DNA from: Archangium sp.
GTDB taxonomy: Bacteria > Myxococcota > Myxococcia > Myxococcales > Myxococcaceae
NCBI GenBank assembly: GCA_031367385.1
Contig: JANLPS010000142.1
Location: 1-18,004, forward strand
Length of the DNA stretch: 18,004 nt
Direction of reading: 5' to 3'
Position 1 is the stretch's first letter. Every line of letters starts with the position of its first letter. Under the pieces are notes generated by a model. The model ran no database searches and was not told the DNA's origin. It was given only the letters and a program-made list of their open reading frames with translations. Positions 1 through 17,912 of this stretch are shown here, piece after piece. The position numbers and the translations under genes were made by a program.

Positions 1-56
1 TCGACCTTCTTCGAGCGCAACGCCTTCTTCAATCTCGCCTCTGTCTTGAGTCTCAT
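1..56 (-). CDS. Possible 5' end of a hypothetical protein running off the window (MRLKTEARLKKALRSKKV...)
   Basis: ATG at 56-54 preceded by GAGGG on the minus strand and open to the window edge. Too short to assign. Confidence 0.3.
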   Translation of the reverse strand, partial: MRLKTEARLKKALRSKKV

Positions 57-159
57 GTGTGCACCCTCTCGGCCTTGATCGGCCGCGGGCGCCTACTTCA
101 CTCTCAACGACTCAAGAAAACGGTAGTCGCTGAACGCTTACACCGATTCGGAGGCCGGT

Positions 160-724
160 TCATCGGGCAAGCATGCTGCCAGAAAAATCGAGCGCTTGAG
201 GCTGCGCGTTCCACGCCACGTGAAGAGTCATCGTTCGGGTCCGCGAATCCCAGTCGAGGTGAATGCCTTCGTAGTTGCCGCCCGTGGTCTCGATGTCACG
301 CAGCGTCGCGAAACCACCCGTGTCAGCGGGGTCGTGCGCGACCGGCACCACGGTCAGCGTCCAATCGTCGGAGGGCCCGCTCGGGCCTTGAACCAACGGC
401 AGCAACTTACCCTTGAAGGAGCCGAACGCCGCGTCGAGCTCAGGCACCCAGACCCACCCGCATTGCAGCATCGCCGCGGTGCCGTAATAGTCGGGGAAGT
501 TCGTGCTCTCGCCCCGAGCATCGATGAGCCTGCTGTAGCCAACGCGCGCGCCCGTCGCGGTCGACACCGAGATGACACTTCAAATCACCGGGTCGCCGGT
601 GTTGACCGGCCCCCGTTGATGTCGATCGCCAGCCCTCGCGCCGCGTCGACCATCATGCCTGACGAGCCAATGCCGTTGGTACAGGTCTCGTACGTCGCCC
701 CGTCGACCGAGCCGTCGTACGCCT
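160..724 (-). pseudogene. 3' part of a host gene interrupted by the RIT-like element
   Basis: Reads AYDGSVDGATYETCTNGIGSSGMMVDAARGLAIDING from 722. A frameshift near 605-615 and an in-frame TGA at 582-580 precede ORF 160..567. Joins ORF 9116..9646 in frame when 725-9126 is removed. Confidence 0.7.
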
Positions 725-756
725 GCTATTCGCAGCTGCGGACTATGCGGAGCATC
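725..756 (+). repeat. Left terminal inverted repeat
   Basis: GCTATTCGCAGCTGCGGACTATGCGGAGCATC matches the reverse complement of 9095-9126 at 30/32. The inner 23 bp (734-756 vs 9095-9117) are perfect. Confidence 0.95.
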
Positions 757-786
757 GTCCCTGTCCCGATTGTAATCGCGGGGGTG

Positions 787-799
787 TGCTCCGCATAGT
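787..799 (-). repeat. Left subterminal inverted copy of the putative recombinase-binding motif
   Basis: TGCTCCGCATAGT is the exact reverse complement of 742-754 (ACTATGCGGAGCA). Confidence 0.9.
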
Positions 800-858
800 T
801 CGACGCGATGATTGGTCGATTTTGCCGAGATCAGTAACCGCAGCAGTACTTCCGAGGG

Positions 859-2142
859 CTACTGCTGCCGGGAAGCGACCCGTCGCTCCCAGCGCGCTCG
901 CGCGACGCGCATGTCCCGCACGGCGAGGTCGACCCGACGTCCGGCGTCTTCGAGTCGCCGCAACGAGTTCGCCCGCACGACCGCATCCATTGTGCCCGCT
1001 CGAACGGCCTGCTCGAGGAGTCCGAAGTCGCGTTCGAGGATTGCTGCGCCGGGCGCGACAGCTTCGTGGGCGCCTGAAGCGGACCCATAGACGGACCACG
1101 CTTGCTCGAGCTCCGAGCGTACGTCGGCGCGAACCGTGGCGACACGTGCGGGCGCGGCGTACGAGAGCGACAACGCGCGTGCCCGCGGCTCGCGGTACCC
1201 GTCGAAGAACGGCATCGGCACGCTGAGCGTGAAGCCCATCTCCCACTCCGACCAAAGCGCGGACAGCCCCGTGGTTCCGGGCCCCTGAAACGCCCCAAGG
1301 GGGATGTCGCGCCGTCGCCAGCCGACGTCCACGCCGAGGGTCGGCGTCGGAATCATCAGCCGCTCGTACATCTCCAAGCCCAGGAAACGTGAGCGCGCCT
1401 CCGCTTCGGCTGCGAGCACGCGCGGGTCGCGGTCAACGACCCCGATGAGAACGGATTCAGAAGGCGCTGCCGCTGGCTCAGGAGGGTCTTCGACCGTGAG
1501 GTCGCCGGTCGAATCACGACCGATAAGCCGCCCGAGACGCGCGCGAGCCTGCGCGAGCACGCCGTGCGTCTGCGCGACAGACGCACGGGCGCCTTGCGCA
1601 TCGAGCACGGCGGCGTCGACATCGAGCTGGTTGCCCTGGCCGACGCGCAGGCGCTCCCGCTCCGCAGTGAGAGCAAGCTCCCACAGGGTGACGACGCGCT
1701 CCGCTCGTCGCGCAAGGCGCTGCGCAAGGGCAACATCGGCCAACGCGATGGCAACGGCTTCATCGAGCGCCCGCAAACCGTCGTCGCGTTCGTAGCCGGC
1801 TCGGTTGCGGTCCGCGCGCGCCGACGCCCCTCTGGGCGTCCACGAGCCAGAAATGTCGACTGGCATCCGCACGCCGACGGTAACCGCATGTTCGTCAGGT
1901 GACCCTGTGAGGGCCCCGGTTGAGTAGCTGCCCTCGATCCACGGGTCGCGTCGAAAGACACGTGCGGCATCACCGAGTACGGCATCGGCCCCTCGAAGCC
2001 GTGCCTCCAGCTCAGCGACCTCAGGTGCGTGCGACCGCGCCTCGGCCCTCGCATCGAGGAGCGAAAGGGCCTGAGCCGCAGCGCTCGCATTCGGGGCGAG
2101 GCACTGAAGGAGCGCGACGAGCAAAACCGCGAGCCGTCTCAC
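859..2142 (-). CDS. TolC/CzcC-family outer membrane efflux protein
   Basis: 427 aa with a signal peptide and two OEP-like repeats (RMPVD...; LSVPMPFFDG...; GQGNQLDV). GTGA overlap with the stop of the RND pump gene. Confidence 0.9.
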   Translation of the reverse strand: MRRLAVLLVALLQCLAPNASAAAQALSLLDARAEARSHAPEVAELEARLRGADAVLGDAARVFRRDPWIEGSYSTGALTGSPDEHAVTVGVRMPVDISGSWTPRGASARADRNRAGYERDDGLRALDEAVAIALADVALAQRLARRAERVVTLWELALTAERERLRVGQGNQLDVDAAVLDAQGARASVAQTHGVLAQARARLGRLIGRDSTGDLTVEDPPEPAAAPSESVLIGVVDRDPRVLAAEAEARSRFLGLEMYERLMIPTPTLGVDVGWRRRDIPLGAFQGPGTTGLSALWSEWEMGFTLSVPMPFFDGYREPRARALSLSYAAPARVATVRADVRSELEQAWSVYGSASGAHEAVAPGAAILERDFGLLEQAVRAGTMDAVVRANSLRRLEDAGRRVDLAVRDMRVARARWERRVASRQQ

Positions 2143-5100
2143 GAGGCACGCTCCGGTGAAGGCAGTGCGCGACGGCGCTCGAGCCAGACGTAGACGGTCG
2201 GCAGCACAATCATATTGAGAACCGTGGACGTGATGAGCCCCCCGCAGACGATGAGCGCCATTGGGGCCTCCAGCTCGCTGCCGGAAAACCCGAATGACAC
2301 CGCGAGCGGAAGGAGCGCGAGGCCTGCGGTCGCAGCGGTCATCAGGATGGGAAGGAGGCGCTCCTCGGCGGCGCGGAGGATGCGCGCGACGGCGTCTTCG
2401 TTCGGCGCTTCGAGGTCAAGCTGGCGCTTGTGTGCGACGAGCATGATGCCGTTGCGCGTGATGATGCCGAAGAGCGTGACGAAGCCGACGAAGCCGGAGA
2501 CCGACAACCCCTCGGGAGTCAGCGCTCCCGCGATGACACCGCCCACGAGGCCGAGCGGGATGTTGAGCAGCACGATGCTTGCGTCACGCAGCGAGCTGAA
2601 CGCCACGGAGAGGAGAACGAAGATGCTGAGAAGCACGAGCGCGCCGAGGACGACGAGCCGAGTGCCTGCCTGGGATCGGGCCACACCTTCGCCGGCGAGG
2701 TCGATGCGGTAACCGGCCAGCACATGCACGCGCTGATGGAGGCGGTCTTCGAGACGCGCTACGGCCGTCGAAAGGGAAGCGCCTGAGGCGCTTGCGCCGA
2801 TGCTGATGCGCCGCTCGCCGCCTTCGTGGTTGATGAGTGAGGGTGCGAGCACTTCGTCGAGGGTCGCGAGCGACGAGACCGTGACATCGCCCATGGCCCG
2901 TGTGGAGACGGGGATGTCTCCGAGCGCGCTCCGTTCTCGGAGCGCCGGGGGGCCTGAGAGCGCGACCTCGACGACCCGTCCGTTCGGCTCGATCAGCTGC
3001 GCCACCGAGCGCCCTTGCCGCCATTCGACGACTGCGTCGGCAAGCTCCGACGCCCGCACGCCCGCCCGAGAGAGAGCGGCGCGATCGGGGACCACGCGGA
3101 GCTGGGGCACGTCAATCTGAGGCTCGACGCGCACCAACCCAAGCCCAGGCGTCTCCTCCATGACGTGAGCGACCTCGCCTGCGAGGCGACGAAGCTCCGT
3201 GAGGTCGGGGCCAACCACCTTTACGACCACGGGGGCCGTCTCGCCGGACAGCACCTCATGAATGCGCTCCCCCAGGAAGCCCTCGACGGCGAACCCAAGT
3301 CCAGGGATTTGGCCGATGCACCGGGCCACATCCAGGACGAGCTCTTCCCATTCTCGCCCACCGCCGGGACGAAGGACGAAGTCCATCTCGATGCGGTGGA
3401 TAGGAGCTGCGTCTTCGTCGAGCTCAGCGCGTCCCGCGCGAGCGCTCACGTGCGAAGCGACCCCAGGCCGCGCCCCAGAGTCGATGCGCCCCGCGAGCCG
3501 CATCGACTCGTCGAGCGAAACTCCTGGTGCTGCGTGTACATGAGCGATGAGCGAGCCCTCGTGGAACTCGGGAAGGAACTGCCCGCCGAGGAACGGCAGC
3601 AGGATGAGCGCGCCAATTGCGAGCACCGCGGAGGAGCCGAGAACCGCTCGCGGCCTCGCAATGGCAGCGGCCAGGACGCGCCGATAGCGCGCGATGAGCC
3701 AGGTTGCGAGCCGCGTCGGACTCGCTTCTTTCGTGGCGAGTCGCGGAAGAAGCCAGGCGCACATCGCCGGTGTCACCGTCAACGCAACGAGGAGCGAAGC
3801 GACGATAGCGAAGATGTACGCCTGCGCGAGAGGTGCAAAGATGCGGCCGGCGATGCCGCCCAGCAGCAGTACCGGCAAGAGCATGAGGCATACGATGACG
3901 GTCGCGTAGACCACCGAGCCTCGCACCTCCCGCGAGGCGTCGTGCACCACGTCGAGCACCGGACGCGGCGAGGTGAGGCGTGCGTTCTCGCGCAGCCGTC
4001 GCCACACGTTCTCGACGTCGACGATGGCGTCGTCCACTACCTCGCCGACGGCTATGGCCAGGCCTCCGAGCGTCATCCCGTTGATGGACACGCCGCTCGC
4101 AACGAGGGCTGCGGCTGCCGCGAGAATCGAGAGCGGGATGGCGGTGAGGCTGATTGCTGCGAGTCTGCCGTGGCGCAGAAACGCGACGAGCACCAGCACG
4201 ACCAGCACCGCACCGAGCAGCATTGCGCGGCTTACGCTCCAGACCGACGCCCGAATGAAGTCCGCCTGGCGAAAGACCGGCGGCTCCACGCGCGCTCCCG
4301 GAGGCAGTCGAGGCGCAATCTCGGCGAGCGCGGCCTCGACACTGGCAGTCACGGAAAGCGTATCGGCCCAAGGGAGCTTGTTGATCTGCACGTAGATGGC
4401 GGGGCGCCCGTCGTACAGCGCGGCACCCACGCGCGGCTCGCCCGCATTCACCACGTCGGCGATGTCGCCCACGCGCACCGTCAGCCCATCCCGGACTACA
4501 ACAACCGCGTCCGAGAGCGCTGGGACCGAGTCGTCGAGCGTGAGGCGCGCGGCCGTCTGCACATCGAGACGCGTGGTCGTTGTCTCTGCGAACCCTGCTC
4601 CCGTGGGAGCTTGCGCGCCTTGGACGCCGGCCAGCAACTCATCCATCGAAATGCGACGGGCACGCATCCGGGAAGGGTCAGGTCGTACCTCGATGCGCTC
4701 GACCTCGCCCCCATGCACCGTGACCTGGGAGACGCCGGGAATTGCCAGAAGACGCGGACGCAGCGTCCAATCGCCGAAGGCGCGCAGCTCTCGTTGATGA
4801 GCGAGGGCCGTGCCTGGGTCAACCGTGATGCACAGCTTCAACAAGGCCCCAATCGGCGCGGAGATGGGAGCGAGTTGCGGCGCGCGCACGCCCTGCGGCA
4901 GGCGAGCCCGCGCCAGCTCGATGCGCTCGGCGACGAGCTGCCGCGCCCGATAGACATCGACGCTGTCCTCGAACAACAACGTGACGACCGAGAGCCCCTG
5001 CGAAGACGTGGAGCGCACCGTCGTCGTGCTCGGCGTTCCGAGGAGTACCCGCTCAATCGGGCGCGTGACGGTCTCCTCGACGTCGAGCGTGCCCATGCCG

Positions 5101-5270
5101 GGCGCCTCGGTCTGAACCACCACGCGCGGCGGCATGAAATCGGGCAGTACATCGAGAGACGCCCGTGACATCGTCGCGAGGCCCGCAACCATGAGACCTA
5201 GCGCGACGAGGAGAACGACGGCGCGGTGTCGGATGGACCAGGCAATCAGACCGTCGAAGAGCGCGCCCAT
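2139..5270 (-). CDS. CusA/CzcA-family (heavy-metal efflux type) RND permease
   Basis: 1043 aa. LDVLPDF..P.V.VQTEAPG N-terminus, GEVVDDAIVDVEN TM4 motif, FLPEFHEG, RNGIMLV, RLLPILMTA. Substrate cannot be read from the sequence. Confidence 0.95.
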   Translation of the reverse strand: MGALFDGLIAWSIRHRAVVLLVALGLMVAGLATMSRASLDVLPDFMPPRVVVQTEAPGMGTLDVEETVTRPIERVLLGTPSTTTVRSTSSQGLSVVTLLFEDSVDVYRARQLVAERIELARARLPQGVRAPQLAPISAPIGALLKLCITVDPGTALAHQRELRAFGDWTLRPRLLAIPGVSQVTVHGGEVERIEVRPDPSRMRARRISMDELLAGVQGAQAPTGAGFAETTTTRLDVQTAARLTLDDSVPALSDAVVVVRDGLTVRVGDIADVVNAGEPRVGAALYDGRPAIYVQINKLPWADTLSVTASVEAALAEIAPRLPPGARVEPPVFRQADFIRASVWSVSRAMLLGAVLVVLVLVAFLRHGRLAAISLTAIPLSILAAAAALVASGVSINGMTLGGLAIAVGEVVDDAIVDVENVWRRLRENARLTSPRPVLDVVHDASREVRGSVVYATVIVCLMLLPVLLLGGIAGRIFAPLAQAYIFAIVASLLVALTVTPAMCAWLLPRLATKEASPTRLATWLIARYRRVLAAAIARPRAVLGSSAVLAIGALILLPFLGGQFLPEFHEGSLIAHVHAAPGVSLDESMRLAGRIDSGARPGVASHVSARAGRAELDEDAAPIHRIEMDFVLRPGGGREWEELVLDVARCIGQIPGLGFAVEGFLGERIHEVLSGETAPVVVKVVGPDLTELRRLAGEVAHVMEETPGLGLVRVEPQIDVPQLRVVPDRAALSRAGVRASELADAVVEWRQGRSVAQLIEPNGRVVEVALSGPPALRERSALGDIPVSTRAMGDVTVSSLATLDEVLAPSLINHEGGERRISIGASASGASLSTAVARLEDRLHQRVHVLAGYRIDLAGEGVARSQAGTRLVVLGALVLLSIFVLLSVAFSSLRDASIVLLNIPLGLVGGVIAGALTPEGLSVSGFVGFVTLFGIITRNGIMLVAHKRQLDLEAPNEDAVARILRAAEERLLPILMTAATAGLALLPLAVSFGFSGSELEAPMALIVCGGLITSTVLNMIVLPTVYVWLERRRALPSPERAS

Positions 5271-5273
5271 GCA

Positions 5274-6428
5274 TCACTCCGTGTGGCGCAGCTCGGAGCG
5301 AAGACTCTCTCCTCGAAGAGACATCGCGCCCTGCGTGACGACGCGCGTCCCTGCTGCGAGCCCACTGGCGACTCGAGCCTGCCCGCCGAAGCGAGCGGCC
5401 ACGCGGACCGCATGCGGTGCGAAGAGGCCGGGAGCCGATTCCACGTAGACAACATCGGTGCCGACGCCCGGTACGAGCGCACTCTCGGGCACCAGGACGC
5501 CGCTCGACTCTCCAACGCCGACGCGCACTGAAATCGTCGCCCCGGGCAACAACGCAGCGGCCTGCGCAGCGTCAACCTCGAGGCGGTCCCGTCGCGTGCC
5601 CTCGGGACCGACAAAGCTTCCGCGCGCCACGAGTCGGGCGTGTATCCAGCCGCCGCTGACCTGAACTTCGTAACTCGCACCAATAGGGTCGTCGGGTGAA
5701 ACGGAGACGTCAATCCATCGCGAGCCGCCTCGCAACACGCGCGCGAGCACGTCGCCAGGGTGAACCACGGTACCCAGCGAGACGTCGAGCGAGACGAGGC
5801 GGCCGGCGATGGGCGCCCGAAGCGAGAGCTGGCTCGCGCCTCCAGAGAGCTGCATCGTGCGAGCGCGCCGCAGCGCTTCGACGCGCGCGCGTGTCGTTTC
5901 GACGGCGGTTTCGGCTTCTTCGCGCGCCTGTTTGCTGATGATGACGGAGGTCGCCAGCTCGCGCGCCCTGGCCGCCGTGGCCTCACGCAGGGCAAGCTCA
6001 CCTTCGGCGGCGCGAAGCTGTCCCTCGAGCTCGGCGGTCTGCACGTTCAACGACACCGTCTCGCCCGCGTTCAGCACCGGAGTGATCTCAACCAGCGTCG
6101 TTCCGCTCGTGACGTCGCTCCCGATCGCGATGGAAGCGACGGTCGTGATGCGCGCAGAGACCGGTGCTACGAGCAACGCCTCGTCACCGGGCCGTGCCGT
6201 CACACGCCCGAGCCGAACCCGAGCGTCAGGCAGCGTTCCTTGCGCAGCCTCTTCGACGCGCAGTTGCAGAGCCGTTTGATCGGCCTTTGAGAGACGGACG
6301 GTGCCGTCAGCCCCCAGACGCTGCGGTACTGCTGCGGCCATCGCCCGCTCTTCACGCTGGGCTTCACTCTCGGTGCACGCGACGAGCAAAAGCGCGGCGC
6401 ACAGCGACGCTCGTTTCAACGTGTCCAT
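5274..6428 (-). CDS. RND membrane fusion (periplasmic adaptor) lipoprotein, CzcB/CusB-like
   Basis: Start reassigned to ATG 6428 (MDTLKRASLCAALLLVAC, lipobox). LRAPIAG lipoyl-like motif, coiled hairpin, C-terminal SGLAAGTRVVTQGA. 384 aa. Confidence 0.9.
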   Translation of the reverse strand: MDTLKRASLCAALLLVACTESEAQREERAMAAAVPQRLGADGTVRLSKADQTALQLRVEEAAQGTLPDARVRLGRVTARPGDEALLVAPVSARITTVASIAIGSDVTSGTTLVEITPVLNAGETVSLNVQTAELEGQLRAAEGELALREATAARARELATSVIISKQAREEAETAVETTRARVEALRRARTMQLSGGASQLSLRAPIAGRLVSLDVSLGTVVHPGDVLARVLRGGSRWIDVSVSPDDPIGASYEVQVSGGWIHARLVARGSFVGPEGTRRDRLEVDAAQAAALLPGATISVRVGVGESSGVLVPESALVPGVGTDVVYVESAPGLFAPHAVRVAARFGGQARVASGLAAGTRVVTQGAMSLRGESLRSELRHTE

Positions 6429-7267
6429 CCGAGCACCTGCCCGACCAGCGCCTCGCCGAACCCGGCGCCCAAGAGCAGCGCGACGACGAGGGCTGCAAGG
6501 GCGAGGGAAACCCCAACGAGCCACGCCGAGCGGTTTCGTGAATCAGGCGGCATCGGCGCAAGCAGACGTTCCACTCGCAGGCGCATTGTGGTGCTCGCCG
6601 ACGCGATGCCAGCGAACGCGAACGGCGCAGGCTGCTCGATGCGAGCAGCGGCAAGGACGGCGGCAGCAAGGTCAGCGCCATCGACCATCGTTCGCGCTTC
6701 TTCGTCGCGCGCAAGCTCGAGGGCGAACAACCAATCTTTGAAGCGAGTCCGCGCTCCCGGCGAGGGCCACTGGAGGTCGGTCGCGATCTGCGCGAGCCAT
6801 ATTCGCAGGGGGTCGTGATGTCGCGCGTGCGCTTCTTCATGCGCGAGCGCAGCCTCGAAGGCGTGCTGGTCAACCTGCTGGTGGAAGTCGTGACCAACGA
6901 GGACTTGCGGACGGAGCAGTCCCACCGTCGCCGCGCTGGCGATCGGGCGTAGCTTAAGCGCGATGATGGCACGCGCTGCCGCACGCAGCCAGACGAACAG
7001 CACTGGCATGGCCACCAGAAATGCCAGCCAAGGTACGCGCTCGGCGTCATCAGGCTCGACCAGCGCCCAGCCGAACAGTGCAGCGAGCGCAAGCAACGCC
7101 GGGGTCAGCGGGATGAGAAGGCGAAGGCGGGCGTGTCTTTCGATTGCGCGACCGGATTGGGTACCTTCGTTCTTCCCGACGACCGCCGCTGCCGCGAGCG
7201 ACCCGACCGGCAGCGCTGCACCTACGAGCACAGCAGCGAGCACGAACAGAACGATCTCACGATCCAC
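6416..7267 (-). CDS. M56-family (BlaR1/MecR1-like) membrane metallopeptidase without a C-terminal sensor domain
   Basis: N-terminal hydrophobic helices, ATVGLLRPQVLV, HExxH motif AHEEAHARHHDP, ELARDEEA, RLRVERLL, then a final hydrophobic helix. Start placed at GTG 7267 (ORF track starts at 7285). Confidence 0.85.
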   Translation of the reverse strand: MDREIVLFVLAAVLVGAALPVGSLAAAAVVGKNEGTQSGRAIERHARLRLLIPLTPALLALAALFGWALVEPDDAERVPWLAFLVAMPVLFVWLRAAARAIIALKLRPIASAATVGLLRPQVLVGHDFHQQVDQHAFEAALAHEEAHARHHDPLRIWLAQIATDLQWPSPGARTRFKDWLFALELARDEEARTMVDGADLAAAVLAAARIEQPAPFAFAGIASASTTMRLRVERLLAPMPPDSRNRSAWLVGVSLALAALVVALLLGAGFGEALVGQVLGWTR

Positions 7268-7649
7268 GGCGGGTCCTCCGGGCATTGACGAGTCGCTCGA
7301 GCTCGTCGAGGAGCTTGGGGTCGACAGCCTCGACCGCGCTCACCAATGCAGCCATGGCAGGGCGCGGCGCGTCGCCCAGCATTCGCGAGACAGCCTCCGT
7401 GGCACGCGCCTGCTCAACGACGCCGCGCGCGACTTTGGCCTGGTACAGGAACGCCTTCCCCGTCTTCTTGCGCGACACGAGCCCCTTGTCGTGTAGGCGA
7501 TCAAGGACCTTCGCCGTCGTCGTATAGACCAACCCCTTCGGCTCGCCGACGCGCTCGTGAACCTCTCGCGCCGACGCAGCGCCGAGGTCCCACAGCGCGG
7601 CGAGCACGGCGTATTCGAGAGTTCCTCCGGGGAGCGCGGGCGGCTTCAT
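7257..7649 (-). CDS. BlaI/MecI/CopY-family transcriptional repressor
   Basis: 130 aa. LEYAVLAALWDLG..SAREV, LVYTTTAKVLDRLHDKGLVSR and GKAFLY winged-helix signature. Adjacent to the M56 peptidase. Confidence 0.93.
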   Translation of the reverse strand: MKPPALPGGTLEYAVLAALWDLGAASAREVHERVGEPKGLVYTTTAKVLDRLHDKGLVSRKKTGKAFLYQAKVARGVVEQARATEAVSRMLGDAPRPAMAALVSAVEAVDPKLLDELERLVNARRTRRGS

Positions 7650-7656
7650 TGACTTG

Positions 7657-7686
7657 ATTATCTACGACGTGCGTCGTAGGTGTCAA
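7657..7686 (-). promoter_or_regulatory. Sigma70-type promoter with a palindromic operator between -35 and -10
   Basis: Minus strand TTGACA (7686-7681), 18 nt, GATAAT (7662-7657), 7 nt, ATG. Palindrome CTACGACG-TG-CGTCGTAG at 7662-7679. Confidence 0.8.
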
Positions 7687-7744
7687 TGCGTGCACCCTTG
7701 GAACGACGATGAGCGGCCCGGCCGCTGAACCCGCGAACGTACGT

Positions 7745-8057
7745 CGCCGCCTTCCCTCCGCGGTCAGTCAGACATTCGTCAGACTCAGGCGTTGGCTGAG
7801 ATGGCCGGTAGATCGTTGGGGACGGCTGCCGCGCATTCACGATCTAAGGCACACATTCGCAACGCAGCGGCCTCCTTCTTTGGTCGGCCCATGGCGCAAA
7901 CATCGACAACAAGATCGCCGCGCTCGCGACCTACCTCGGTCACGTTCGGGTCACCGGCACCTACTGGTACATGACGGGTGTCCCCGAGTTGCTCGCCACC
8001 ACGGCGCGTCGGTTTGAGCGGTTCGCTGCGGTTGGTGGCGGGAGGCCACTCAAGTGA
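7745..8057 (+). pseudogene. Truncated, frameshifted RitB-like tyrosine recombinase (C-terminal third)
   Basis: PRIHDLRHTFATQR in one frame, then one extra base near 7871 and LLLWSAHGANIDNKIAALATYLGHVRVTGTYWYMTGVPELL to TGA 8055-8057, which overlaps the GTG of the next recombinase. The 5' boundary is approximate. Confidence 0.85.
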
Positions 8058-9031
8058 AGCTACCTCAGGAGTTCTTCTCCCAGCAGCTGCTCGCACAAAG
8101 GGCCGCCAGCCCGAGAACCATCGCCAGCTACCGCGACGCGATCCGACTCTTGTTGCAGTTCACCGAGAAGCGGCTTCGCAAGGCGCCAACCGACCTGGCG
8201 ATGGAGGATCTCGATTCGACGCTGGTCCTGGAGTTCCTCGATCACTTGGAGAAGGAGCGTGGAAACAGCGCCCGTAGCCGCAACCTCCGGTTGACGACAG
8301 TCAGGTCCTTCATGAAGTTTTCCGCGCTCCGCGATCCGAGTTCGCTGGCCGTTGCCCAGCGCGTACTCGCAATCCCAACGAAGCGCTTCGACCGTCGCAT
8401 GGTCGGCTTTCTCTCTCGAAGGGAGGTCGACTCGATCCTCGACGCGCCCGATGGCTCCACATGGAGCGGCCGGCGCGACCGGGTGCTGTTCGCCACGCTC
8501 TACAATACGGGCGCACGCGTCTCGGAGATCATCGGCGTCCGCCGACGAGATCTCATATTGGAAGGCGTCGCTTGCGTGCGTCTTCTCGGCAAGGGGCGGA
8601 AGGAGCGCGCGGTTCCTCTTCGGAGGACTACGGCGAGAGACCTACGGCGGTGGCTCGACCAGATCGAGGGCGGCGAGGAGCGGCCCGTGTTTCCCAATCG
8701 CGGAGGGCAAGCGCTGTCGCGGTCAGGCGTCGAGGATCGGCTCGACGCCGCCGTTCGACTCGCCGAGGCGACTTGCATCAGCCTCCGCGGTCGGCAGATC
8801 TCGCCCCACACGTTCCGCCACTCGACCGCGATGCATCTTCTGCAGGCGGGGGTCGACGTCACCGTGATTGCCTTGTGGCTCGGCCACGAGAACCCAGCGA
8901 CGACACACCTCTACGTCGAGGCAGACCTGGCGATGAAGGAGCGCGCGTTGGCAAAGGTTCAGCCCACGCGATCGGGCATCGGGCGTTTCCGGCCTGGAGA
9001 TGGGCTGCTCGCGTTTCTCGAAGCTCTTTGA
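8054..9031 (+). CDS. Tyrosine recombinase, RitC-like (third gene of RIT elements)
   Basis: 325 aa. SAM-like N-terminus (SPRTIASYRDAIRLLL) and a full catalytic set: TGARVSE (R), GKGRKER (K), HTFRH, LGH, THLY (Y). The C-terminal ADLAMKERAL..RFRPGDGLLAFL tail is what I recall as typical of RitC. Confidence 0.93.
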   Translation: MKLPQEFFSQQLLAQRAASPRTIASYRDAIRLLLQFTEKRLRKAPTDLAMEDLDSTLVLEFLDHLEKERGNSARSRNLRLTTVRSFMKFSALRDPSSLAVAQRVLAIPTKRFDRRMVGFLSRREVDSILDAPDGSTWSGRRDRVLFATLYNTGARVSEIIGVRRRDLILEGVACVRLLGKGRKERAVPLRRTTARDLRRWLDQIEGGEERPVFPNRGGQALSRSGVEDRLDAAVRLAEATCISLRGRQISPHTFRHSTAMHLLQAGVDVTVIALWLGHENPATTHLYVEADLAMKERALAKVQPTRSGIGRFRPGDGLLAFLEAL

Positions 9032-9041
9032 CTATGCGGAG
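9030..9041 (+). repeat. Right subterminal inverted copy of the binding motif, overlapping the recombinase stop codon
   Basis: GACTATGCGGAG is identical to 741-752 and is the reverse complement of 9099-9110. Confidence 0.9.
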
Positions 9042-9094
9042 ACCGGAGAGGGCTCGCCGCCTGCAGCGGCGGGCAGTTCGCGTTGCCCGAGGTT

Positions 9095-9126
9095 GATGCT
9101 CCGCATAGTCCGCAGCTACGCATAGC
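9095..9126 (-). repeat. Right terminal inverted repeat
   Basis: Reverse complement GCTATGCGTAGCTGCGGACTATGCGGAGCATC, 30/32 identical to 725-756. Confidence 0.95.
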
Positions 9127-9989
9127 GGTAGCTATGCATAGATCCGCATAGAGACTGAAACAGCATCTTCGCTTCGTAGCGCCCTGCTTCGGTCACGAAC
9201 CACCCGTGACCAACCCAATGCGACGACTCGCAGGAATAGAAGCCTCCGGTGGTCTTGCCGTTGTACGAATACGGTTCGACGTTCAACGGGCTCACCGCGC
9301 TGCCCGCCGGGCCGAAATTGCTCGTGTCGATCATTCGCGTGTAGTTCTTCTGCGGCCCGACGCCGGTGCCCGGGTTCACGAACCAAACCCACCGGGGCCC
9401 CTGCTCCCCGAAGGCTGGTTTGTACTGAACCGCGCCATACGTGTGACCGATGTAGAGCGACCCATCGGGGAAGCGCCCATACTCGTCGATCGCCGCGCTG
9501 CCGCCTTCGGCATACGCCATGGTTGGCACATGCGAGACGCTGTAGGTCTTGGTCGCGCGGTTGTAGTGAACGAGCCCCTGAAACTCGGTGCCGTGCCCGC
9601 TGTTCGCCATCACGATCTCGTCGCGATCATCGGCGGGGAGCGACACGATGCCGCCGTAAATATTGAACGCATCGCTGATCTTGCCGGAGGGGTAGATGGG
9701 CGGGTTGACGTCCGGCGGGAGATTTGACCGTGTGGATGTCTCGGAAATAGATCAGGCCTCCACCGAACCGAGCTGGTTGACCGGCGTCGGCCACACCGCT
9801 GTCTGCACGGCTGGAGTTGGACGCACCGGCATCAACGGCTCCCCCGTCGAAGTGGCCTGCGTCGAAACCTGAGTCAGCACTGAAAAAGACTCCAGCGTCA
9901 TTCGTGCCGCCGTCGGCGTCGGGCTGAAGCGCATTGAGAATCTGGGCGGAGCATTCGTGCTCCACAGTGTGGTGGCGAGTCGACACCAC
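9127..9989 (-). pseudogene. 5' part of the interrupted host gene (hypothetical, DAG/DGG linker then a beta-rich domain)
   Basis: ORF 9627..9989 carries a DAG/DGG/DSG linker. A frameshift around 9720-9780 leads into LPPDVNPPIYPSGKISDAFNIYGGIVSLPADD and ORF 9116..9646, whose stop lies inside the right TIR. No signal peptide at the present start. Confidence 0.65.
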
Positions 9990-9992
9990 TGA

Positions 9993-10814
9993 TCAGTGGG
10001 CGACGACCAGCGAGTAGTCGACGGCCGCTGTGCCTTCGAATGACTTGAAGGTGCCATGGCCAAGCGCAGCCATCTGGGTCAGACGCGCGAGGTCGGCTGC
10101 CAGGGCCCCTGCGGGGCACATCGAGGGAGGCGGGTCGATCTTGCAGGAGGTCTGTACGATGGGGTCGTTGCAGGCCGAAATCGCCTGTCTTGGAAAGAAG
10201 ACGCGCGCCGCGCTGAAACGCACGCTGTGCTTTGCATCATCGAGCCCGGGAAAACCGGCAACCGCCCTGCCGCAGAGCAACGCCTGATCTTCATTGGTCG
10301 TGCTGCCGTCACTGACCAGAATGATTTGGTAGTTGGCTGACCCGCCCCGAGCAATATCGGCGGCGACCACGCTCTGCAGCTGCGAGAGTACCGGGACGAA
10401 CTGTCGAGCCCCCTGCGGCGTGCCCTGCCTCAGAATCTCCTGCTGCAGAGAAAGCCGCATCGCGGCGGTGAAGGCCGAGAGGGGGCTCAACTCCGAAGCA
10501 CCTGTCGGCGTGAGGTAGGCGACGCTCGAACCCCAAAATTTGACGATCAGAATGGGCGTACTCGCCGGGAGCTGATCAAGAAACGAGGTGAGGCCCGGCC
10601 CCCGCCGCCCATCGGGGTCTGTCACCGTCAGAGACTGAGAATCTTCGAACGCGAAGATGAATTTGGTCTCTCGTGTGCCTGCGTCTCCGACGCTGGGGCC
10701 CGCATCGACCACTGGCGTGCCAGCATCAGCCACTGGCGTGCCAGAATCAGCGACGATGGGCCCGGTCGTGCCGCAGGCGGTGATCAGCAGAATGAGAAGA
10801 GACAGAGCTCGCAT
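9993..10814 (-). CDS. VWA-domain lipoprotein resembling the VWA domain of myxobacterial MtsD/CglB-type proteins
   Basis: Start reassigned to ATG 10814 (MRALSLLILLITAC, lipobox). DAG linker, FIFAFEDSQSLTVTDPDG, IILVSDG, RLTQMAALGHGTF. 273 aa. Confidence 0.7.
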   Translation of the reverse strand: MRALSLLILLITACGTTGPIVADSGTPVADAGTPVVDAGPSVGDAGTRETKFIFAFEDSQSLTVTDPDGRRGPGLTSFLDQLPASTPILIVKFWGSSVAYLTPTGASELSPLSAFTAAMRLSLQQEILRQGTPQGARQFVPVLSQLQSVVAADIARGGSANYQIILVSDGSTTNEDQALLCGRAVAGFPGLDDAKHSVRFSAARVFFPRQAISACNDPIVQTSCKIDPPPSMCPAGALAADLARLTQMAALGHGTFKSFEGTAAVDYSLVVAH

Positions 10815-10881
10815 CGCTCGTGACTCTGCACAAGGTACGCCAGACAGCTCTTCACCAAAGCGGCACGCCCAAAGCCGACGC

Positions 10882-13038
10882 TCACGGCTTGGGGGCTGGC
10901 GGTTTCGGCAACGCCAGCTCAATCACCGTCATCGAGTACGGCGGCAAGCGAACCGAGTGCCCGATGCTCGCGCCCTTCACCTGCTCCGCGAAGCCCTTGG
11001 GGTCTCCGGTATACGTGTAGACCTTCTGCGAATCAGGCCGCGGGCACCCGCGCAAATCGATGCTGGCGTCGAGCGCGCCCGTGGTCGAGAAGTTGAGCGC
11101 GACCAGGGTCACCGACAGCCCGTCAGCCGACCGCGAGGCAAACAGCGAACCCTCGGGAGGCCCTTCGGTCGGCATCGAGAGCTCGCGAAAATGCCCGCCT
11201 TTGCCGTCGTAGTTGCGAAACGCCCGAAACGCCCAGAACGCGGGTGAGCCTTCGCCGGGGTACGTCCAATAGTAGGCGGAGTAGAGGCCTTGTTGCCCGA
11301 AGCGGCCCAGCGCCTCGGCCAGCGCGAGCCCACCCGACATGTGCCGCTCAGCGCCGAAGTTGTATTCGCCGATCGACAGCTTGAGCCCGGGGTTGTTGCG
11401 CGCGACCCACTCCTTCATGCGAGGTATCAGGCGTATCGGCTCTTTGATGTACGACTCGTCGGTGTACCGCGCGTCCCACAGGCTGCGGGTCGAGCGAATT
11501 CGCAGCGCATTGGTGGCCGGGTCGGTCTGCCCATCGGTGCCGACGCCCAAGCCCTTCGCCTGAGGGTAGTAGTGCAGATCGAGCACATCGAGAATGCGCA
11601 CGCCGGTTTTTTTCTCGTGCTCGGCCAGGCGCTGCAGGTACCACTCGATCAGCGGTACATCGCCGTGCGCGCGGCGGTCAGGCTTCAGGTTGAAGCCAGC
11701 CTTCGCGTCGGCGGCGGAATACGAGAAGCCTGGCCATCCCCACTCCGCCGGGCCGGCGATCAGCGCCCCGGGCGCGGCCTTTCGAACCGCCGAGCCGTAC
11801 GCGATGGTGCGCTCGAGCAGCTCGTCATAGGTGACCGGGTTCGGGTGCAGGTCGCGGTGCGTGTCGTTCCACAGCGCGGGCTCGTTATCGAGAATGTACA
11901 TCTGCACGCTGGGGCCGCGCTGCTTCTCGAACTCGTTGATCTTCTCGACCCACTGCCCGATGAACTCCGGTGACGCGCGAATGCTGGTGATGGCCGGAGC
12001 GCCCGGCGTGACCGGTTTGCCGGTGGCCTTCGCCACGCCGTTGCCGGCCTTGCGGTTCTCGCCACAGGTGGCCTCTTGCGCACCGAAGTCGTCGGTCGAA
12101 AAGGCGACCGACTTCGTGTCTTTGGCAACCCAGCCGAGAATCGGCACGGTGATGGCGCTGCCTAACTTGCGGTCGCGGTTGACGCCCAAGAATGTCGACC
12201 ACACCGCTTCGTTCTTGTGGCCGTAGTCGGTGTTCATGAAGAAGTAGTCGCTGGCGGTGTTCCACGCGTTGCCGAGCTCCCAGTTGTAGCGGCTGGTCGG
12301 GTTGCCGCCCCAGCGCCGAGAGGTCGCCCCCACCTTGAATTGGGTGTCGGTGTCGAGCTCTCGCAGCGCTGAGTACGCGATGCCGTAGATCAGCGGGCTG
12401 ATCGGCGTGGTCGGGGCGGCGCAGTCGACCACGAACGAGGCGGGTTCTCCTGGAGCAGCGCGCAGGGCTTCGGCTTTCGCTGCCAAGACCGGGTCGACCT
12501 GGGTGAGGCCGATGTGGTCGAGCTCGACTTCTCCGGTGCCGGCGATGGGCTTGTACGCGCGAATGACCAGCCGGTTGAACGGCGAGAGGCTCGGGTTGAG
12601 CTCGGTCATCGAGACGAAGACCTCGCTCCAGCCGCCTTCGAGGTCGACGCGGTGCTGCGGCCCAATCACGACCCGGGGAAAGGTGTCGGCTTTGTCGGAG
12701 TCGACCCGCACCTGAAAGAAATCGCCCCAGGCTGGCGAGGCGCGAAAGCGAAAGACCACGCCCCCGAAGGCGCCGGTGAGCGCGGGCTTCGCAAGAATCC
12801 ACCCTCCGTAGTTGCCCAAAGGGAGCACCTCGGCCGTGCCCAGCTTCGGCTGATGGGTGACCCAGCCGTGGTCTTGCCAGCCACCTTTGAGCCCGTCGTC
12901 GTAGATGGTTTCGACGATTTCGGGCGTGGCGATGGTGCGGGTACCGGCGGGGCGAATCGAGGTGGCGGGCGCCGCGCCATGGCAGTTGAAGCCCAGGCAC
13001 AGCACCATGACGAGAGAAGTACGCACGGGCGCGACCAT
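10882..13038 (-). CDS. Glycoside hydrolase family 44 (endoglucanase/xyloglucanase type), myxobacterial EpsB-like
   Basis: ISPLIYG, RWGGN, YNWE.GNAWN, LDNEP (acid/base), DLHYYPQ, RIRSTRSLWD, GEYNFG (nucleophile). N-terminal carbohydrate-binding-like module. Start uncertain (13038, 13026 or 13008). Confidence 0.9.
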   Translation of the reverse strand: MVAPVRTSLVMVLCLGFNCHGAAPATSIRPAGTRTIATPEIVETIYDDGLKGGWQDHGWVTHQPKLGTAEVLPLGNYGGWILAKPALTGAFGGVVFRFRASPAWGDFFQVRVDSDKADTFPRVVIGPQHRVDLEGGWSEVFVSMTELNPSLSPFNRLVIRAYKPIAGTGEVELDHIGLTQVDPVLAAKAEALRAAPGEPASFVVDCAAPTTPISPLIYGIAYSALRELDTDTQFKVGATSRRWGGNPTSRYNWELGNAWNTASDYFFMNTDYGHKNEAVWSTFLGVNRDRKLGSAITVPILGWVAKDTKSVAFSTDDFGAQEATCGENRKAGNGVAKATGKPVTPGAPAITSIRASPEFIGQWVEKINEFEKQRGPSVQMYILDNEPALWNDTHRDLHPNPVTYDELLERTIAYGSAVRKAAPGALIAGPAEWGWPGFSYSAADAKAGFNLKPDRRAHGDVPLIEWYLQRLAEHEKKTGVRILDVLDLHYYPQAKGLGVGTDGQTDPATNALRIRSTRSLWDARYTDESYIKEPIRLIPRMKEWVARNNPGLKLSIGEYNFGAERHMSGGLALAEALGRFGQQGLYSAYYWTYPGEGSPAFWAFRAFRNYDGKGGHFRELSMPTEGPPEGSLFASRSADGLSVTLVALNFSTTGALDASIDLRGCPRPDSQKVYTYTGDPKGFAEQVKGASIGHSVRLPPYSMTVIELALPKPPAPKP

Positions 13039-13086
13039 ACCGGCAATCGCGGGTACGGTGCGCCCTTCACCACTGGAGGCCTCGTC

Positions 13087-14706
13087 GTGGACCCAATCAA
13101 GCGCCTGGTCGAGCTGCTCGATGACCAATCACCTCGCAAACGCATCGCCGCTGCGGTCGTCTTGGGTGAGCTGCGTGTCAAAGATGCGCAGGTCGTCGCT
13201 CGCCTCGTCGAGATGGCCAAAGACCCCCTCGACGCGTTCGCCGAGCCTGCCATTGAAGCGCTCGGGCAGTTGCATGCGCTCAAGGCCCTGCCGGTGCTGC
13301 TCGATTCGCTGGGCCGCTCGAGAGACGTTCAAGGCTTCGCCCGCACGGCCATCGCGGCGCTGGGAGAAGACGCGTTGCCCGAGCTGCGAGAGCGTCTGCA
13401 CGACGCCAAGCCCGAGGTGCGCGCGGTGCTCTCGCAGCTTCTCCCCGCGGTCGGTGGGAGCAAGTCATTCGAGCTCACCCTCGAGGGCATGCGCGACCAG
13501 CCGTGGGAGGCCATCAACAAGGTTGCCCTCTCGGTGCGACAAGAAGCCCGAACGATGAGCGAACCTCAGAAGCGGGTGATGAAGACGCAGGTCGACCGGT
13601 TTCTCGCCAAGAAGAAGACCCTCGAAGACGAGACGGCCTTGCGTGGAGCCTTGAAGGTGCTCGGTTTTCTCGAGCTGGTCGACACGCAAGACCTGCTGCT
13701 CGGGTACGTCGGTGCGAAGCAGGCGCCGCTGGTGCGGGTCGAGGCCGCCACCGCGCTCCGCTTCGCCTGCGGCAAAGGCCCGACCAAGAAGGCGCTGCGA
13801 AAGTTGATCGACCTGCTGCTCGACGCAGACCCTCTCGTCGCGCGGGCCGCCCGCGACTCGCTCACCGTGCTGAACATCGGCCCGGAGTTCGCCGACGAGC
13901 TCGCCGAGCTGTGCGCGAGCAAAGATGCCGAGGTCGCGCTGTGGGCGATACGCCACCTGGGAGCCCTCGCCGCCGGCCTCAAGGGCTCGCTCGCGGCGAA
14001 GACGCTGCTCCCGGTCGCGCGGGGTGGTGACCGTGCGCGCGCCGATGCGGCGGCCCGGGTGCTCGCGGAGTTGCCCAACGGAGCGACCTTGCTGGTGCAG
14101 GCGCTGGCCGACGCCGAAGACGAGGTGGGCGCGCAGGTGCTCTCTGACGTGCTGGGCCCCCTCGCGGCGAGCTTGCAGAAGAAAGACGTGAAGCTGCTCT
14201 TGGCCGCGGGCACCAAGAACCTGGGCTCGGCCCTCGCGATTGCCCGCCGGCAGCTCGAGCCAGTGCGAGCGACCGACGCCGAGGGCTGGGGCGAGGCGCT
14301 GCGCACCAAGGCGAAGGCCCTGCGCGCCAAAGACCCCGCGCGCGCCGAGCTGATTTCCCAGATGCTGGGCCGTTCGGGAGTCGCCACCACCGCCGACCGC
14401 TTCGAGATGGCGGTGCAGCAGCTGCTCCACCATTCGCTCGACCCGCACCCGAGGGCCCGGCAGCGTGACCCTGCGCTCTCAGAGCTCGAGCGGTTGCACG
14501 CCGAGGGCTTCGCGGTGGCGCAGGCCGTCACCAAGCACAAGCAGCTGGGTGACGACGCGCGGTATTACGTGGGCGTTCACTTCGCCGAGAAGCCGCAGTT
14601 CGAGCTCAAGAACGTCGGCGCCGAGCTGCTCGAGGTCATCGCCGGCAAGGGCAAAGGCAAGCTCGCCAAGGCGGCGAAGAACAAGATGAAGTTGCTCGAG
14701 CTGTAG
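13087..14706 (+). CDS. HEAT-repeat helical protein
   Basis: GTG 13087 preceded by GGAGG. Repeated HEAT-like units (KRIAAAVVLGEL, AIEALGQL, VRVEAATAL, VARAARDSL). 539 aa. Confidence 0.85.
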   Translation: MDPIKRLVELLDDQSPRKRIAAAVVLGELRVKDAQVVARLVEMAKDPLDAFAEPAIEALGQLHALKALPVLLDSLGRSRDVQGFARTAIAALGEDALPELRERLHDAKPEVRAVLSQLLPAVGGSKSFELTLEGMRDQPWEAINKVALSVRQEARTMSEPQKRVMKTQVDRFLAKKKTLEDETALRGALKVLGFLELVDTQDLLLGYVGAKQAPLVRVEAATALRFACGKGPTKKALRKLIDLLLDADPLVARAARDSLTVLNIGPEFADELAELCASKDAEVALWAIRHLGALAAGLKGSLAAKTLLPVARGGDRARADAAARVLAELPNGATLLVQALADAEDEVGAQVLSDVLGPLAASLQKKDVKLLLAAGTKNLGSALAIARRQLEPVRATDAEGWGEALRTKAKALRAKDPARAELISQMLGRSGVATTADRFEMAVQQLLHHSLDPHPRARQRDPALSELERLHAEGFAVAQAVTKHKQLGDDARYYVGVHFAEKPQFELKNVGAELLEVIAGKGKGKLAKAAKNKMKLLEL

Positions 14707-14802
14707 GCGCGGCTGACGCGGCGAGCTCGTGAGGTCGCCCGGCGACCGGCGCCGCGGCCCTGCGCGAGCGCGCCGTGCAAGGCACCCGCCCCATACCGGT
14801 CT

Positions 14803-14928
14803 GGGGGTCCAACGCGTTGGAGGCCCCGCTGGTGCGCCCAGCCCGGGGGTCCTACGCGTTGGAGGCCCCGCTGGTGCGCCCAGCCCGGGGGTCCAACGCG
14901 GTGGAGGCCTCGCTGGTGCGCCCGGCCC
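14803..14928. repeat. Three tandem 42-bp palindrome-containing repeats
   Basis: Unit GGGGGTCCAACGCGTTGGAGGCCCCGCTGGTGCGCCCAGCCC at 14803, 14845 and 14887, with 1 to 3 substitutions and no spacers. Confidence 0.95.
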
Positions 14929-14936
14929 GGGCGTGG

Positions 14937-14988
14937 AGGCCTCGCTGGCGGCAGGCCTCGCTGGCGGCAGGCCTCACTGGCGGCAGGC
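14937..14988. repeat. Three tandem 16-bp repeats plus a partial copy
   Basis: AGGCCTCGCTGGCGGC at 14937 and 14953, AGGCCTCACTGGCGGC at 14969, AGGC at 14985. Confidence 0.95.
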
Positions 14989-15004
14989 AACGCGGCGGCG
15001 GGCG

Positions 15005-15910
15005 TCAGTTGCGCGGCGTCGCGCCCATCGCCTCGAGCAGCTCGATGAGGTCGTGAAACGTGGCCTCATGACGCGTCGAACAGAACTGGCACGTCACCGC
15101 GGTGCTGCCCTGCGTGTCGAGAATGTCTTGCACCTCGGCCCGGCCCAGCGACGCCAGCGTCGAGAGCACTTTTTCTTTCGAGCAGGTGCACCGCCACTGC
15201 AGCGGCCCCCGCATCACCACATTCGGCGCGAGCTCTGCGCAGACCGCCATGAGCACGGTCTCGGCCGTCACCGATGGCAGCGAGGTCAGCGCGGTTCGCA
15301 GCCGCTCGGGCAACGCAGCCCCCAGGCGCTCCAACGCCTTGGCGTCGCCGTCGGGCAACGCCTGAATCAAGACCCCCGCGACCAGCGTGAGCGGCTCATC
15401 AGGCGCCGAGATGACATCGAGCGCCAGCCGCGTCGCCACCTGCTCGGAGACCTCGAAGTACTTGTTCATGTCATCGGCGAGCGACATCGCGGTCAGCTCG
15501 ACCGAGGAGCGATAGAACTCACCCTCTCCCACGTCGCGCAGCACCGACAAGAACCCCTTGTTGCCCAACGCGCCACGCCAGCGAAACGCGCCTTCGGCCA
15601 GCTCGACATCGACGTACGGGTTCTTCACGTACCCCCGCACGTCGCCCGAGGCCGAGGCGTCGACGAGCAGGCCGCGCAGCGCCCCGTCACACTCGAGCTG
15701 CAGGTTGATGCGGCTGTTGTCTTTTTGAAGCGAGGCCATCAACGAGGCCCCGGTCATCGCCTGCCCCAGCAACGAGGCGGCGGCGGTTTGCAGCTGGTGC
15801 TTCGAGCGGGCCTCGCGCGCCGCAGAGCTGGCAACGACGACCGACACCTTCAGGTTGATGCGCGGCAACAAGGCCCGCGCCACCCCATCTGTCGAACGCT
15901 GCTCAGCCAT
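15005..15910 (-). CDS. hslO: Hsp33 redox-regulated chaperone
   Basis: 301 aa. GDVRGYV, YFEVSEQV, AGVLIQALP and the C-terminal zinc motif CTC...CQFC. Confidence 0.95.
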   Translation of the reverse strand: MAEQRSTDGVARALLPRINLKVSVVVASSAAREARSKHQLQTAAASLLGQAMTGASLMASLQKDNSRINLQLECDGALRGLLVDASASGDVRGYVKNPYVDVELAEGAFRWRGALGNKGFLSVLRDVGEGEFYRSSVELTAMSLADDMNKYFEVSEQVATRLALDVISAPDEPLTLVAGVLIQALPDGDAKALERLGAALPERLRTALTSLPSVTAETVLMAVCAELAPNVVMRGPLQWRCTCSKEKVLSTLASLGRAEVQDILDTQGSTAVTCQFCSTRHEATFHDLIELLEAMGATPRN

Positions 15911-15930
15911 GATGAACGGTGCGCTTTACG

Positions 15931-17130: not shown

Positions 17131-17144
17131 TTCAGACAACTCCT

Positions 17145-17179
17145 AAAAGCGCCTCGCGAGCCCGGTCGGTCGCGAGGCG
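17145..17179 (-). terminator. GC-rich hairpin with a short U tract (terminator-like)
   Basis: 10-bp perfect stem CGCCTCGCGA/TCGCGAGGCG (17150-17159, 17170-17179) followed by CTTTT on the minus strand. Confidence 0.5.
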
Positions 17180-17299
17180 GAGGCCAGCTGTGTGGCCATG
17201 TGGTGAGAACGGCTCTCAATGAAGGTCACGCAAGAAACAGAAACGTGACCCGCACGTCAAGCCTCACCTACCAGGCCTGTAAGAAACGCGCTCGGCCGA

Positions 17300-17761
17300 T
17301 CAGAACGGAATGTCGTCGCCGCCGGCCGGAGGGGGGCCCATGTCTTCGCCCGCAGGAGGCCCGAAGTCGTTGCCACCCTTGCCACCACCGAAGCCGCCTT
17401 CAGCTCGGGGCCCACCAGCACCCGCCGCTCCACCGCCCAAGAACTGCACGGTGTTGGCGACGATTTCGGTGGTGTAATTCTTCTTGTTCTCCTTGTCCGT
17501 CCACTCCCGGGTCTGGAGACGGCCCTCGATGTACGCCTGGCGGCCCTTCTTCAAATACTCGCCGCACAGCTCGGCCAACTTGCCCCACACCACGATGCGA
17601 TGCCACTCGGTGCGCTCTTGTTTCTGCTGGTTCTTGTCGACCCACGACTCGTTGGTCGCGATGCGAAAATTGGCCACCGCCGCGCCCGCCGGAGTGAACC
17701 GAACCTCGGGGTCTGCGCCAAGATTACCGATGAGAATGACCTTATTGACTCCACCTGCCAT
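17300..17761 (-). CDS. ssb: Single-stranded DNA-binding protein
   Basis: [30 protein letters not shown], Gly-rich linker and C-terminal DDIPF. Start reassigned to ATG 17761. Confidence 0.98.
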
Positions 17762-17912
17762 GACGACCGTCCTTTTGCTTGCTGCGAAGCCGCTCCACCA
17801 CGGAGCGGTGACAGCCGCATAGCATGAGGGTCTGACATCTTCGCAACGGGGCCGCCGCGCATCGCAGGGCAATCGCATCATCCGTTTTCAGTCATCTCGG
17901 TAGTTTGGCGGC

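What the first reader, a model, noticed from the sequence alone, without database searches (positions are those of the whole stretch)
725..9126. Cargo-carrying RIT-type element with the recombinase trio largely replaced by an RND efflux operon
Seen: 32-bp terminal inverted repeats (30/32) enclose a complete five-gene regulator plus efflux operon, a ritB-like 3' remnant and an intact ritC-like gene. The tolC stop lies only 60 bp from the left inner repeat, so ritA and most of ritB are absent. Established, from memory: RIT elements are about 3.5 kb units of three overlapping tyrosine recombinases between inverted repeats and are generally described without passenger genes. Inference: this is a non-autonomous RIT derivative that captured a putative metal-efflux module and moved it as a unit, using recombinases in trans or RitC alone. 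An alternative is that an intact RIT inserted first and the cargo replaced its interior in place.
Basis: partly seen in the sequence, partly recalled or inferred. Interest (0 to 1): 0.85.

Follow-up and report, generated by a model that had tools for sequence, protein, structure and literature searches.

The report
Efflux-carrying RIT element missing two recombinases
An 8.4-kb mobile element of the three-recombinase (RIT) type splits a host gene and carries an intact, likely metal-pumping efflux operon while lacking two of its three recombinases; a distantly related genome carries the same operon inside a complete RIT, so these supposedly cargo-free elements likely ferry such pumps.

Summary
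Observation confirmed, boundary corrected. The 30/32 repeats are true RIT ends. The element runs 726-9151, not 725-9126: a 20-bp palindromic cap, found at one end of most related RITs, lies at 9132-9151. Removing the unit puts both flanks in one reading frame, so it sits inside a host gene. ritA is absent, the ritB remnant is frameshifted, ritC is open, and the five cargo genes are intact. Assembled contigs of three runs bridge all junctions at single-copy depth, with no empty site or circle. In another Myxococcota genome a homologous five-gene operon lies inside a complete RIT trio of a different RitC lineage, inserted in an IS66 gene whose empty copy is in that genome. So RITs likely carry this operon as cargo, probably captured twice. 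Not shown: that this trio-less form ever moved. It has no second copy, three lesions in the split host gene suggest long residence, and the genome's only intact trio has different ends. Best reading: a cargo RIT inserted whole and lost ritA/ritB in place (0.55). Movement in trans after the loss remains possible (0.25). New variant of a known kind.

The parts
720..725 (.). 6-bp spacer at the cap-less junction, likely target-derived
   Evidence: by analogy with the empty site of L128
726..798 (+). Left RIT end: two 10-bp boxes 17 bp apart (726-735, 743-752), 36-bp spacer, inverted box 789-798
859..2142 (-). TolC/OEP-family outer-membrane channel (cargo)
   Evidence: PF02321
2139..5270 (-). RND permease, closest to the CusA/CzcA heavy-metal subfamily (617 bits, below the 701 cut-off)
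5274..6419 (-). RND periplasmic adaptor (MFP)
   Evidence: TIGR01730 above cut-off
6416..7267 (-). BlaR1/M56-family peptidase, likely the sensor
   Evidence: PF05569
7257..7649 (-). BlaI/CopY-family repressor
   Evidence: PF03965
7662..7686 (-). 18-bp palindromic operator candidate (7662-7679) beside a -35-like hexamer; unique in the genome and conserved before homologous operons
7757..8057 (+). 3' remnant of ritB (residues ~228-325), frameshifted near 7870; 4-bp overlap with ritC
8054..9031 (+). ritC tyrosine recombinase, open frame with catalytic motifs, N-terminus ~8 residues short
9032..9125 (-). Right RIT end: box directly after the ritC stop (9032-9041), 57-bp spacer, boxes 9099-9108 and 9116-9125
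9126..9157 (.). 6-bp spacer (9126-9131), degenerate 20-bp palindromic cap (9132-9151, 7 of 10 pairs), outer 6-bp spacer (9152-9157)
9152..9751 (-). 5' part of the interrupted host gene (unknown function); a frameshift near 9755 is inferred
160..725 (-). 3' part of the interrupted host gene, with a frameshift near 605 and an in-frame stop near 580

Best explanation
This is a RIT element with an intact five-gene efflux operon inside its ends that likely inserted whole into a host gene and later lost ritA and most of ritB in place, leaving a probably immobile relic. Shown: RIT-type ends with a one-sided palindromic cap, a single-copy unit, flanks in one reading frame, intact cargo, and a complete RIT with a homologous operon in another genome inserted in IS66 with the empty copy beside it. 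Inferred mechanism: the recombinases bind the TATGC-type boxes and exchange strands across 6-bp spacers. The cap supplies two back-to-back crossover sites, so it ends up at either end. The 6 bp at the cap-less junction come from the target and need not match those of the element. Inferred cargo function: the M56 protein relieves BlaI repression at the palindromic operator and turns on a proton-driven pump, likely for metal cations. The cargo is likely kept by selection.
For: Ends match the consensus of related RITs. A cap was auto-detected in 42 of 56 related elements (24 left, 17 right, 1 both; many are near-copies) and at the window's right end. The best codon-usage frames on both flanks are in register across the predicted junction. 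Homologue P0133 (388 aa) aligns to the right flank up to residue 199 and leaves 189 residues, against 186 codons in the left flank. L128 (G157) is cap-ritABC-blaI-M56-mfp-cusA-tolC-MFS-end, 11,603 bp, splitting IS66 tnpC (Pfam positions 1-183 and 177-283). An uninterrupted copy, 92-95% identical, is in the same genome. Long residence: three lesions in ~1.4 kb of host gene, one in the ritB remnant, none in 6.8 kb of cargo. No second copy. Flat depth, no empty-site joint and no circle joint in 4 runs.
Against: No intact parent of this element was found (best RitC 70%), so the order of events is not observed. In L128 the cargo follows ritC, whereas here it is upstream and divergent. The 36-bp left spacer is shorter than in well-parsed left ends (45-75) and resembles right ends (35-37), hinting at a further rearrangement. 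ritC has stayed open and shows no excess of changes at conserved sites (6 versus a median of 3; 27 of 119 homologues have as many). Homology of the left flank to P0133 is weak: 4 of 500 shuffles, against 19-23 of 500 and 10 of 200 in controls.
Confidence: 0.55

Rival explanations
1. Non-autonomous element: ritA and ritB were lost first, and the cargo unit then moved here using recombinases in trans or RitC alone.
For: Both ends and the cap are complete with helically phased spacers. ritC is open. The genome has an intact trio on C337. Gene-less or ritB-less RIT derivatives exist (346-bp capped mini in G240, 331-bp mini in G290, ritB-deleted copy L168).
Against: Single copy; no empty site or circle. 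The C337 trio lies outside the window's RitC subclade (99% support) and its ends differ at 8-9 of 27 bases. The G240 mini is single-copy in its genome, and the G290 mini's other matches cover only flank sequence. [quoted passage not shown]
Confidence: 0.25
2. A cargo-free RIT inserted first; the operon arrived later and replaced ritA and 5' ritB in place by illegitimate recombination.
For: Cargo and deletion share one junction (under 70 bp unassigned between the promoter and the ritB remnant). None of the RitC-related loci with both ends located carried passenger genes; the four longer ones held IS-like or nested RIT inserts.
Against: No IS or att remnant at either cargo junction. L128 shows a homologous operon inside a complete RIT. 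A neat replacement would have to spare the promoter, the operator and the left end.
Confidence: 0.15
3. Misassembly or chance repeats.
For: The genome is a 562-contig assembly; three of the bridging runs may be its source.
Against: Contigs of X1, X3 and X5 (two studies) bridge the left, internal and right junctions at depth ~8-13 with no indels. The end architecture matches dozens of RITs.
Confidence: 0.03

Closest known systems
RIT (recombinase in trio) elements: Cupriavidus metallidurans CH34 ritABC (PMC2864759, passage seen; PMC3414803, RIT section read; PMC8138268, passages seen)
   Same: RitB-RitC order with a 4-bp overlap, RitC clade, ~30-bp terminal inverted repeats with a neighbouring palindrome, insertion inside genes (IS66 transposase for L128, as reported for CH34).
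   Different: 8.4 kb instead of ~3.5 kb; five passenger genes inside the ends; no ritA, broken ritB. Truncated trios are noted in PMC3414803, but passenger genes are not mentioned in the passages seen.
Tn554 and SE/GInt tyrosine-recombinase elements (PMC10214605, passages and Discussion read)
   Same: Several tyrosine recombinases, cargo carriage, a 6-bp junction footprint in which element and target spacers need not match.
   Different: Different recombinase families; no one-sided 20-bp cap described in what was read; RIT movement is untested.
HME-RND metal efflux systems (CusCBA, CzcCBA, ZneA)
   Same: TolC-MFP-RND tripartite set; best solved match ZneA, E 4e-111.
   Different: Below the TIGR00914 cut-off; regulated by a BlaI/M56 pair rather than a two-component or sigma system; substrate unknown. 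The TM4 motif looks HME5-like (motif recalled, not checked; class list seen in PMC7060636 passages).

Membership tests
RIT element | Three adjacent tyrosine recombinase genes ritA-ritB-ritC | tested here: not met
   No RitA match on this contig; only a frameshifted ritB 3' remnant and ritC
RIT element | Recombinase belongs to the RitC family | tested here: met
   Inside the RitC clade, SH-aLRT 98, quick tree of 62 rows; 76 of 80 related loci also show a ritA-like or ritB-like neighbour, 72 a ritA-like one
RIT element | 4-8 bp overlap between consecutive rit genes | tested here: met
   ritB stop overlaps the ritC start by 4 bp
RIT element | ~28-34 bp terminal inverted repeats with a neighbouring palindrome | tested here: met
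RIT element | Length about 3.5 kb without passenger genes | tested here: not met
   8,426 bp with five cargo genes
RIT element | Mobility as a unit (identical copies, empty sites) | tested here: inconclusive
   No copy, empty site or circle for this unit; flanks in frame; empty site shown only for L128
Non-autonomous element | Moved by recombinases supplied in trans | not testable with these tools
   The only candidate helper (C337) is a different lineage
CusA/CzcA heavy-metal RND | TIGR00914 score above the curated cut-off | tested here: not met
   616.6 versus 701.45, though the best of 11 models
CusA/CzcA heavy-metal RND | Metal efflux activity | not testable with these tools
   Inferred from similarity only

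The most novel reading that the evidence does not exclude
RITs are an overlooked class of cargo transposons that have captured the same BlaI/M56-regulated RND pump at least twice, and the stripped form here moved as a non-autonomous unit, using only its capped ends plus RitC or a borrowed trio.
Probability: 0.25. Interest if true: 0.75.

Novelty: new variant of a known kind. Interest (0 to 1): 0.52.

Why it matters
RITs are widespread, described as three genes between repeats, and have not been moved in the laboratory (PMC10214605, 2023). A complete RIT carrying an efflux operon with its empty site, plus a second lineage carrying a homologous operon, make RITs candidate vehicles for resistance-type genes that annotation tools would miss. 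The exact junctions (cap, three 6-bp spacers) give ready substrates for testing which recombinase does what. The window's copy itself is most likely a decayed example.

Tried and rejected
A metagenome scan with a 20-nt end motif gave 4 matches, none with rit genes or other similarity, so chance. Two viral-collection scans found nothing. A plasmid tblastn with M56 found nothing. DNA search of 41 relatives: no copy of the unit or the empty site. Host-gene search: none in 150 genomes of the order or among longer proteins; the Atlas gave no usable hit; only one weak full-length homologue. An end-motif scan of 401 genomes found 40 with matches, several of them chance, and no pair enclosing passenger genes apart from this window and C337. 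The M56 search found other loci in 4 of 400 phylum genomes and 3 of 207 family genomes; a 350-genome repeat returned three already known loci; three smaller searches added none. Of the three full five-gene operons seen, two lie in RIT ends; the G200 one has no rit-like gene within about 20 kb. The closest cargo relatives (permease 92-94% on 7-66 kb contigs) could not be placed in context. The idea that the left end is a second copy of the right end was rejected: the spacers are unrelated. The cap keeping a fixed orientation to the rit genes is not universal: it holds in L090-L095, L169 and L170 but is reversed in L168, and L165/L166 show the gene block flipped between identical flanks, so circle and inversion models both remain. 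Ricker et al. 2013 was not held; nothing from it was seen.

Full report
Observation. The window is a whole 18,004-bp contig (C69) of a 562-contig genome, by inference a member of Myxococcota. The 32-bp inverted repeat is there. It is absent from 40 of 40 simulated sequences and present in 4 of 150 other contigs. Each end is two 10-bp boxes 17 bp apart plus an inverted third box; the 11-mer core occurs four times in the genome, all in these ends. Between the ends lie five open genes on the minus strand (BlaI, M56, MFP, RND permease, TolC), a palindromic operator candidate, the last ~98 codons of ritB with a frameshift near 7870 and an open ritC. No ritA-like sequence is on this contig.

RIT identity and true boundaries. 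Eighty loci encoding RitC relatives (48-64%) are mostly ritA-ritB-ritC trios (72 of 80 show a ritA-like match) with the same end boxes. In a quick tree the window protein lies in the RitC clade with 98% support. Of 56 related elements for which both ends had been located (the other 24 loci were not parsed), 42 had an automatically detected 20-bp palindrome outside one end (24 left, 17 right, 1 both), bracketed by 6-bp spacers. Fourteen had none detected, some through misparsing or contig ends, and many rows are near-copies. The window has a degenerate cap at 9132-9151, so the element is 726-9151, 8,426 bp. Its three 6-bp spacers differ from each other at 2, 3 and 3 positions, at the high end of the range. 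Spacer lengths (36 left, 57 right) fit the ~10.5-bp series of relatives, but 36 is otherwise seen at right ends.

Target. With the unit and one spacer removed, the best codon-usage frames of both flanks are in register. A 388-aa homologue aligns to the right flank up to the junction (30% identity, pairwise E 2e-11; library E 6e-5) and leaves 189 residues against 186 codons on the left. The left-side similarity is only suggestive. The split gene has an inferred frameshift on the right and a frameshift and a stop on the left, which fits long residence but could predate the insertion.

Reality and activity. Assembled contigs of runs X1, X3 and X5 bridge all junctions at depth ~8-13, equal to the flanks, with no indels. 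No joint skips the unit or closes it into a circle. These three runs may be the source of the assembly; X6 is patchy, and contigs drop rare variants. The genome has no second copy. Its only intact trio (C337) has RitC at 53%, lies outside the window's subclade and differs at 8-9 of 27 end positions.

The key comparison. A search of 401 genomes with the M56 protein found four other loci. One, L128 in G157 (another family), holds an open ritA-ritB-ritC followed directly by blaI-M56-mfp-permease-tolC and an MFS gene. It has a cap on the left, degenerate ends (10 of 27 mismatches) and spans 11,603 bp. It splits an IS66 tnpC, and an uninterrupted copy is in the same genome. The six bases at the cap-less junction equal the empty site, while those beside the cap match at 3 of 6. 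The window's operon is no closer to that of L128 (43-64%) than to a RIT-free operon in G200 (41-65%). The two RitCs share 48% and fall in different subclades, and the cargo positions differ. Two independent captures are the simplest reading; an old common origin with rearrangement is not excluded.

Mechanism. Shown: sequence anatomy and junction logic. Inferred: boxes are recombinase-binding arms, the 6-bp spacers are crossover regions, and the cap gives two alternative sites. Cap orientation supports a circular intermediate in most copies of one genome but not in all. For this copy I favour insertion as a complete cargo RIT and later loss of ritA and 5' ritB (0.55) over movement in trans (0.25) or late replacement by the cargo (0.15). 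The intact cargo amid decayed neighbours suggests selection; its codon usage fits the genome less well than most flanking genes (0.02-0.16 per codon versus 0.17-0.27 in five of six intact neighbours; one neighbour scored 0.03). Metal efflux is inferred from similarity only.

What is known. Five literature searches on RIT terms found no paper title or passage describing passenger genes in RITs. Seen: passages of PMC5737581, PMC2864759, PMC8138268 and PMC7060636; passages and the RIT section of PMC3414803; passages and the Discussion of PMC10214605. Their supplements were not read, and Ricker 2013 was not available; either may mention cargo. PMC3414803 gives ~3.5 kb, a 28-29 bp repeat with an overlapping palindrome, and truncated trios. 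Earlier unchecked notes of this scan already describe cargo-carrying complete RITs and the one-sided cap, and none was found for a ritA-less cargo form or this operon. Labels for the IS inserts in the longer relatives are recalled, not searched.

Verdict. A real, decayed RIT derivative with efflux cargo; it works like a RIT but fails the trio criterion. New variant of a known kind, interest 0.52. The strongest addition is the second, complete carrier with its empty site.

Noticed in passing
L175 (G000:C337) 346-7096: The genome's intact RIT trio lies between two inverted ends 5.5 kb apart. After ritC come an unknown 284-aa ORF and IS-like remnants (IS66-like by recall). Both flanks are inverted 662-bp homologues (86%) of the same gene start, and no cap is seen: likely a rearranged pair of insertions.
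   Followed up: partly
L128 (G157:C1418) 1813-13415: Complete 11.6-kb cargo RIT (ritABC + five-gene RND module + MFS) in IS66 tnpC, with the empty copy on G157:C1367.
   Followed up: yes
L107 1291-1636 and L106 876-1206: Miniature RITs of 346 bp (capped) and 331 bp without recombinase genes.
   Followed up: partly
L168, L169, L077: RIT copies with caps at both ends; L168 also lacks ritB and has its caps reversed relative to sister copies. L165 and L166 have identical flanks with the gene block flipped.
   Followed up: partly
L018-L095: A widespread ~3.1-kb RIT subgroup with a shorter RitA, up to about 12 copies in one genome (G404), often inserted in what look like IS ends.
   Followed up: no
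L102 18539 and L104 12618 (G269:C4): Two RIT-type ends 34 kb apart in the same orientation with near-identical outer flanks.
   Followed up: no
window 1-141: End of a multi-copy repeat, probably an IS, identical at four other contig ends; depth far above the flank.
   Followed up: partly
window 14796-14993: Three 42-bp tandem repeats and three 16-bp repeats between the HEAT-repeat gene and hsp33.
   Followed up: no
window 8758: All four runs read G where the window has A (third codon position of ritC).
   Followed up: no
window 10882-17881: Ordinary-looking host genes: GH44 glycoside hydrolase, HEAT-repeat protein, Hsp33, a Cys-rich secreted-looking protein, SSB.
   Followed up: no
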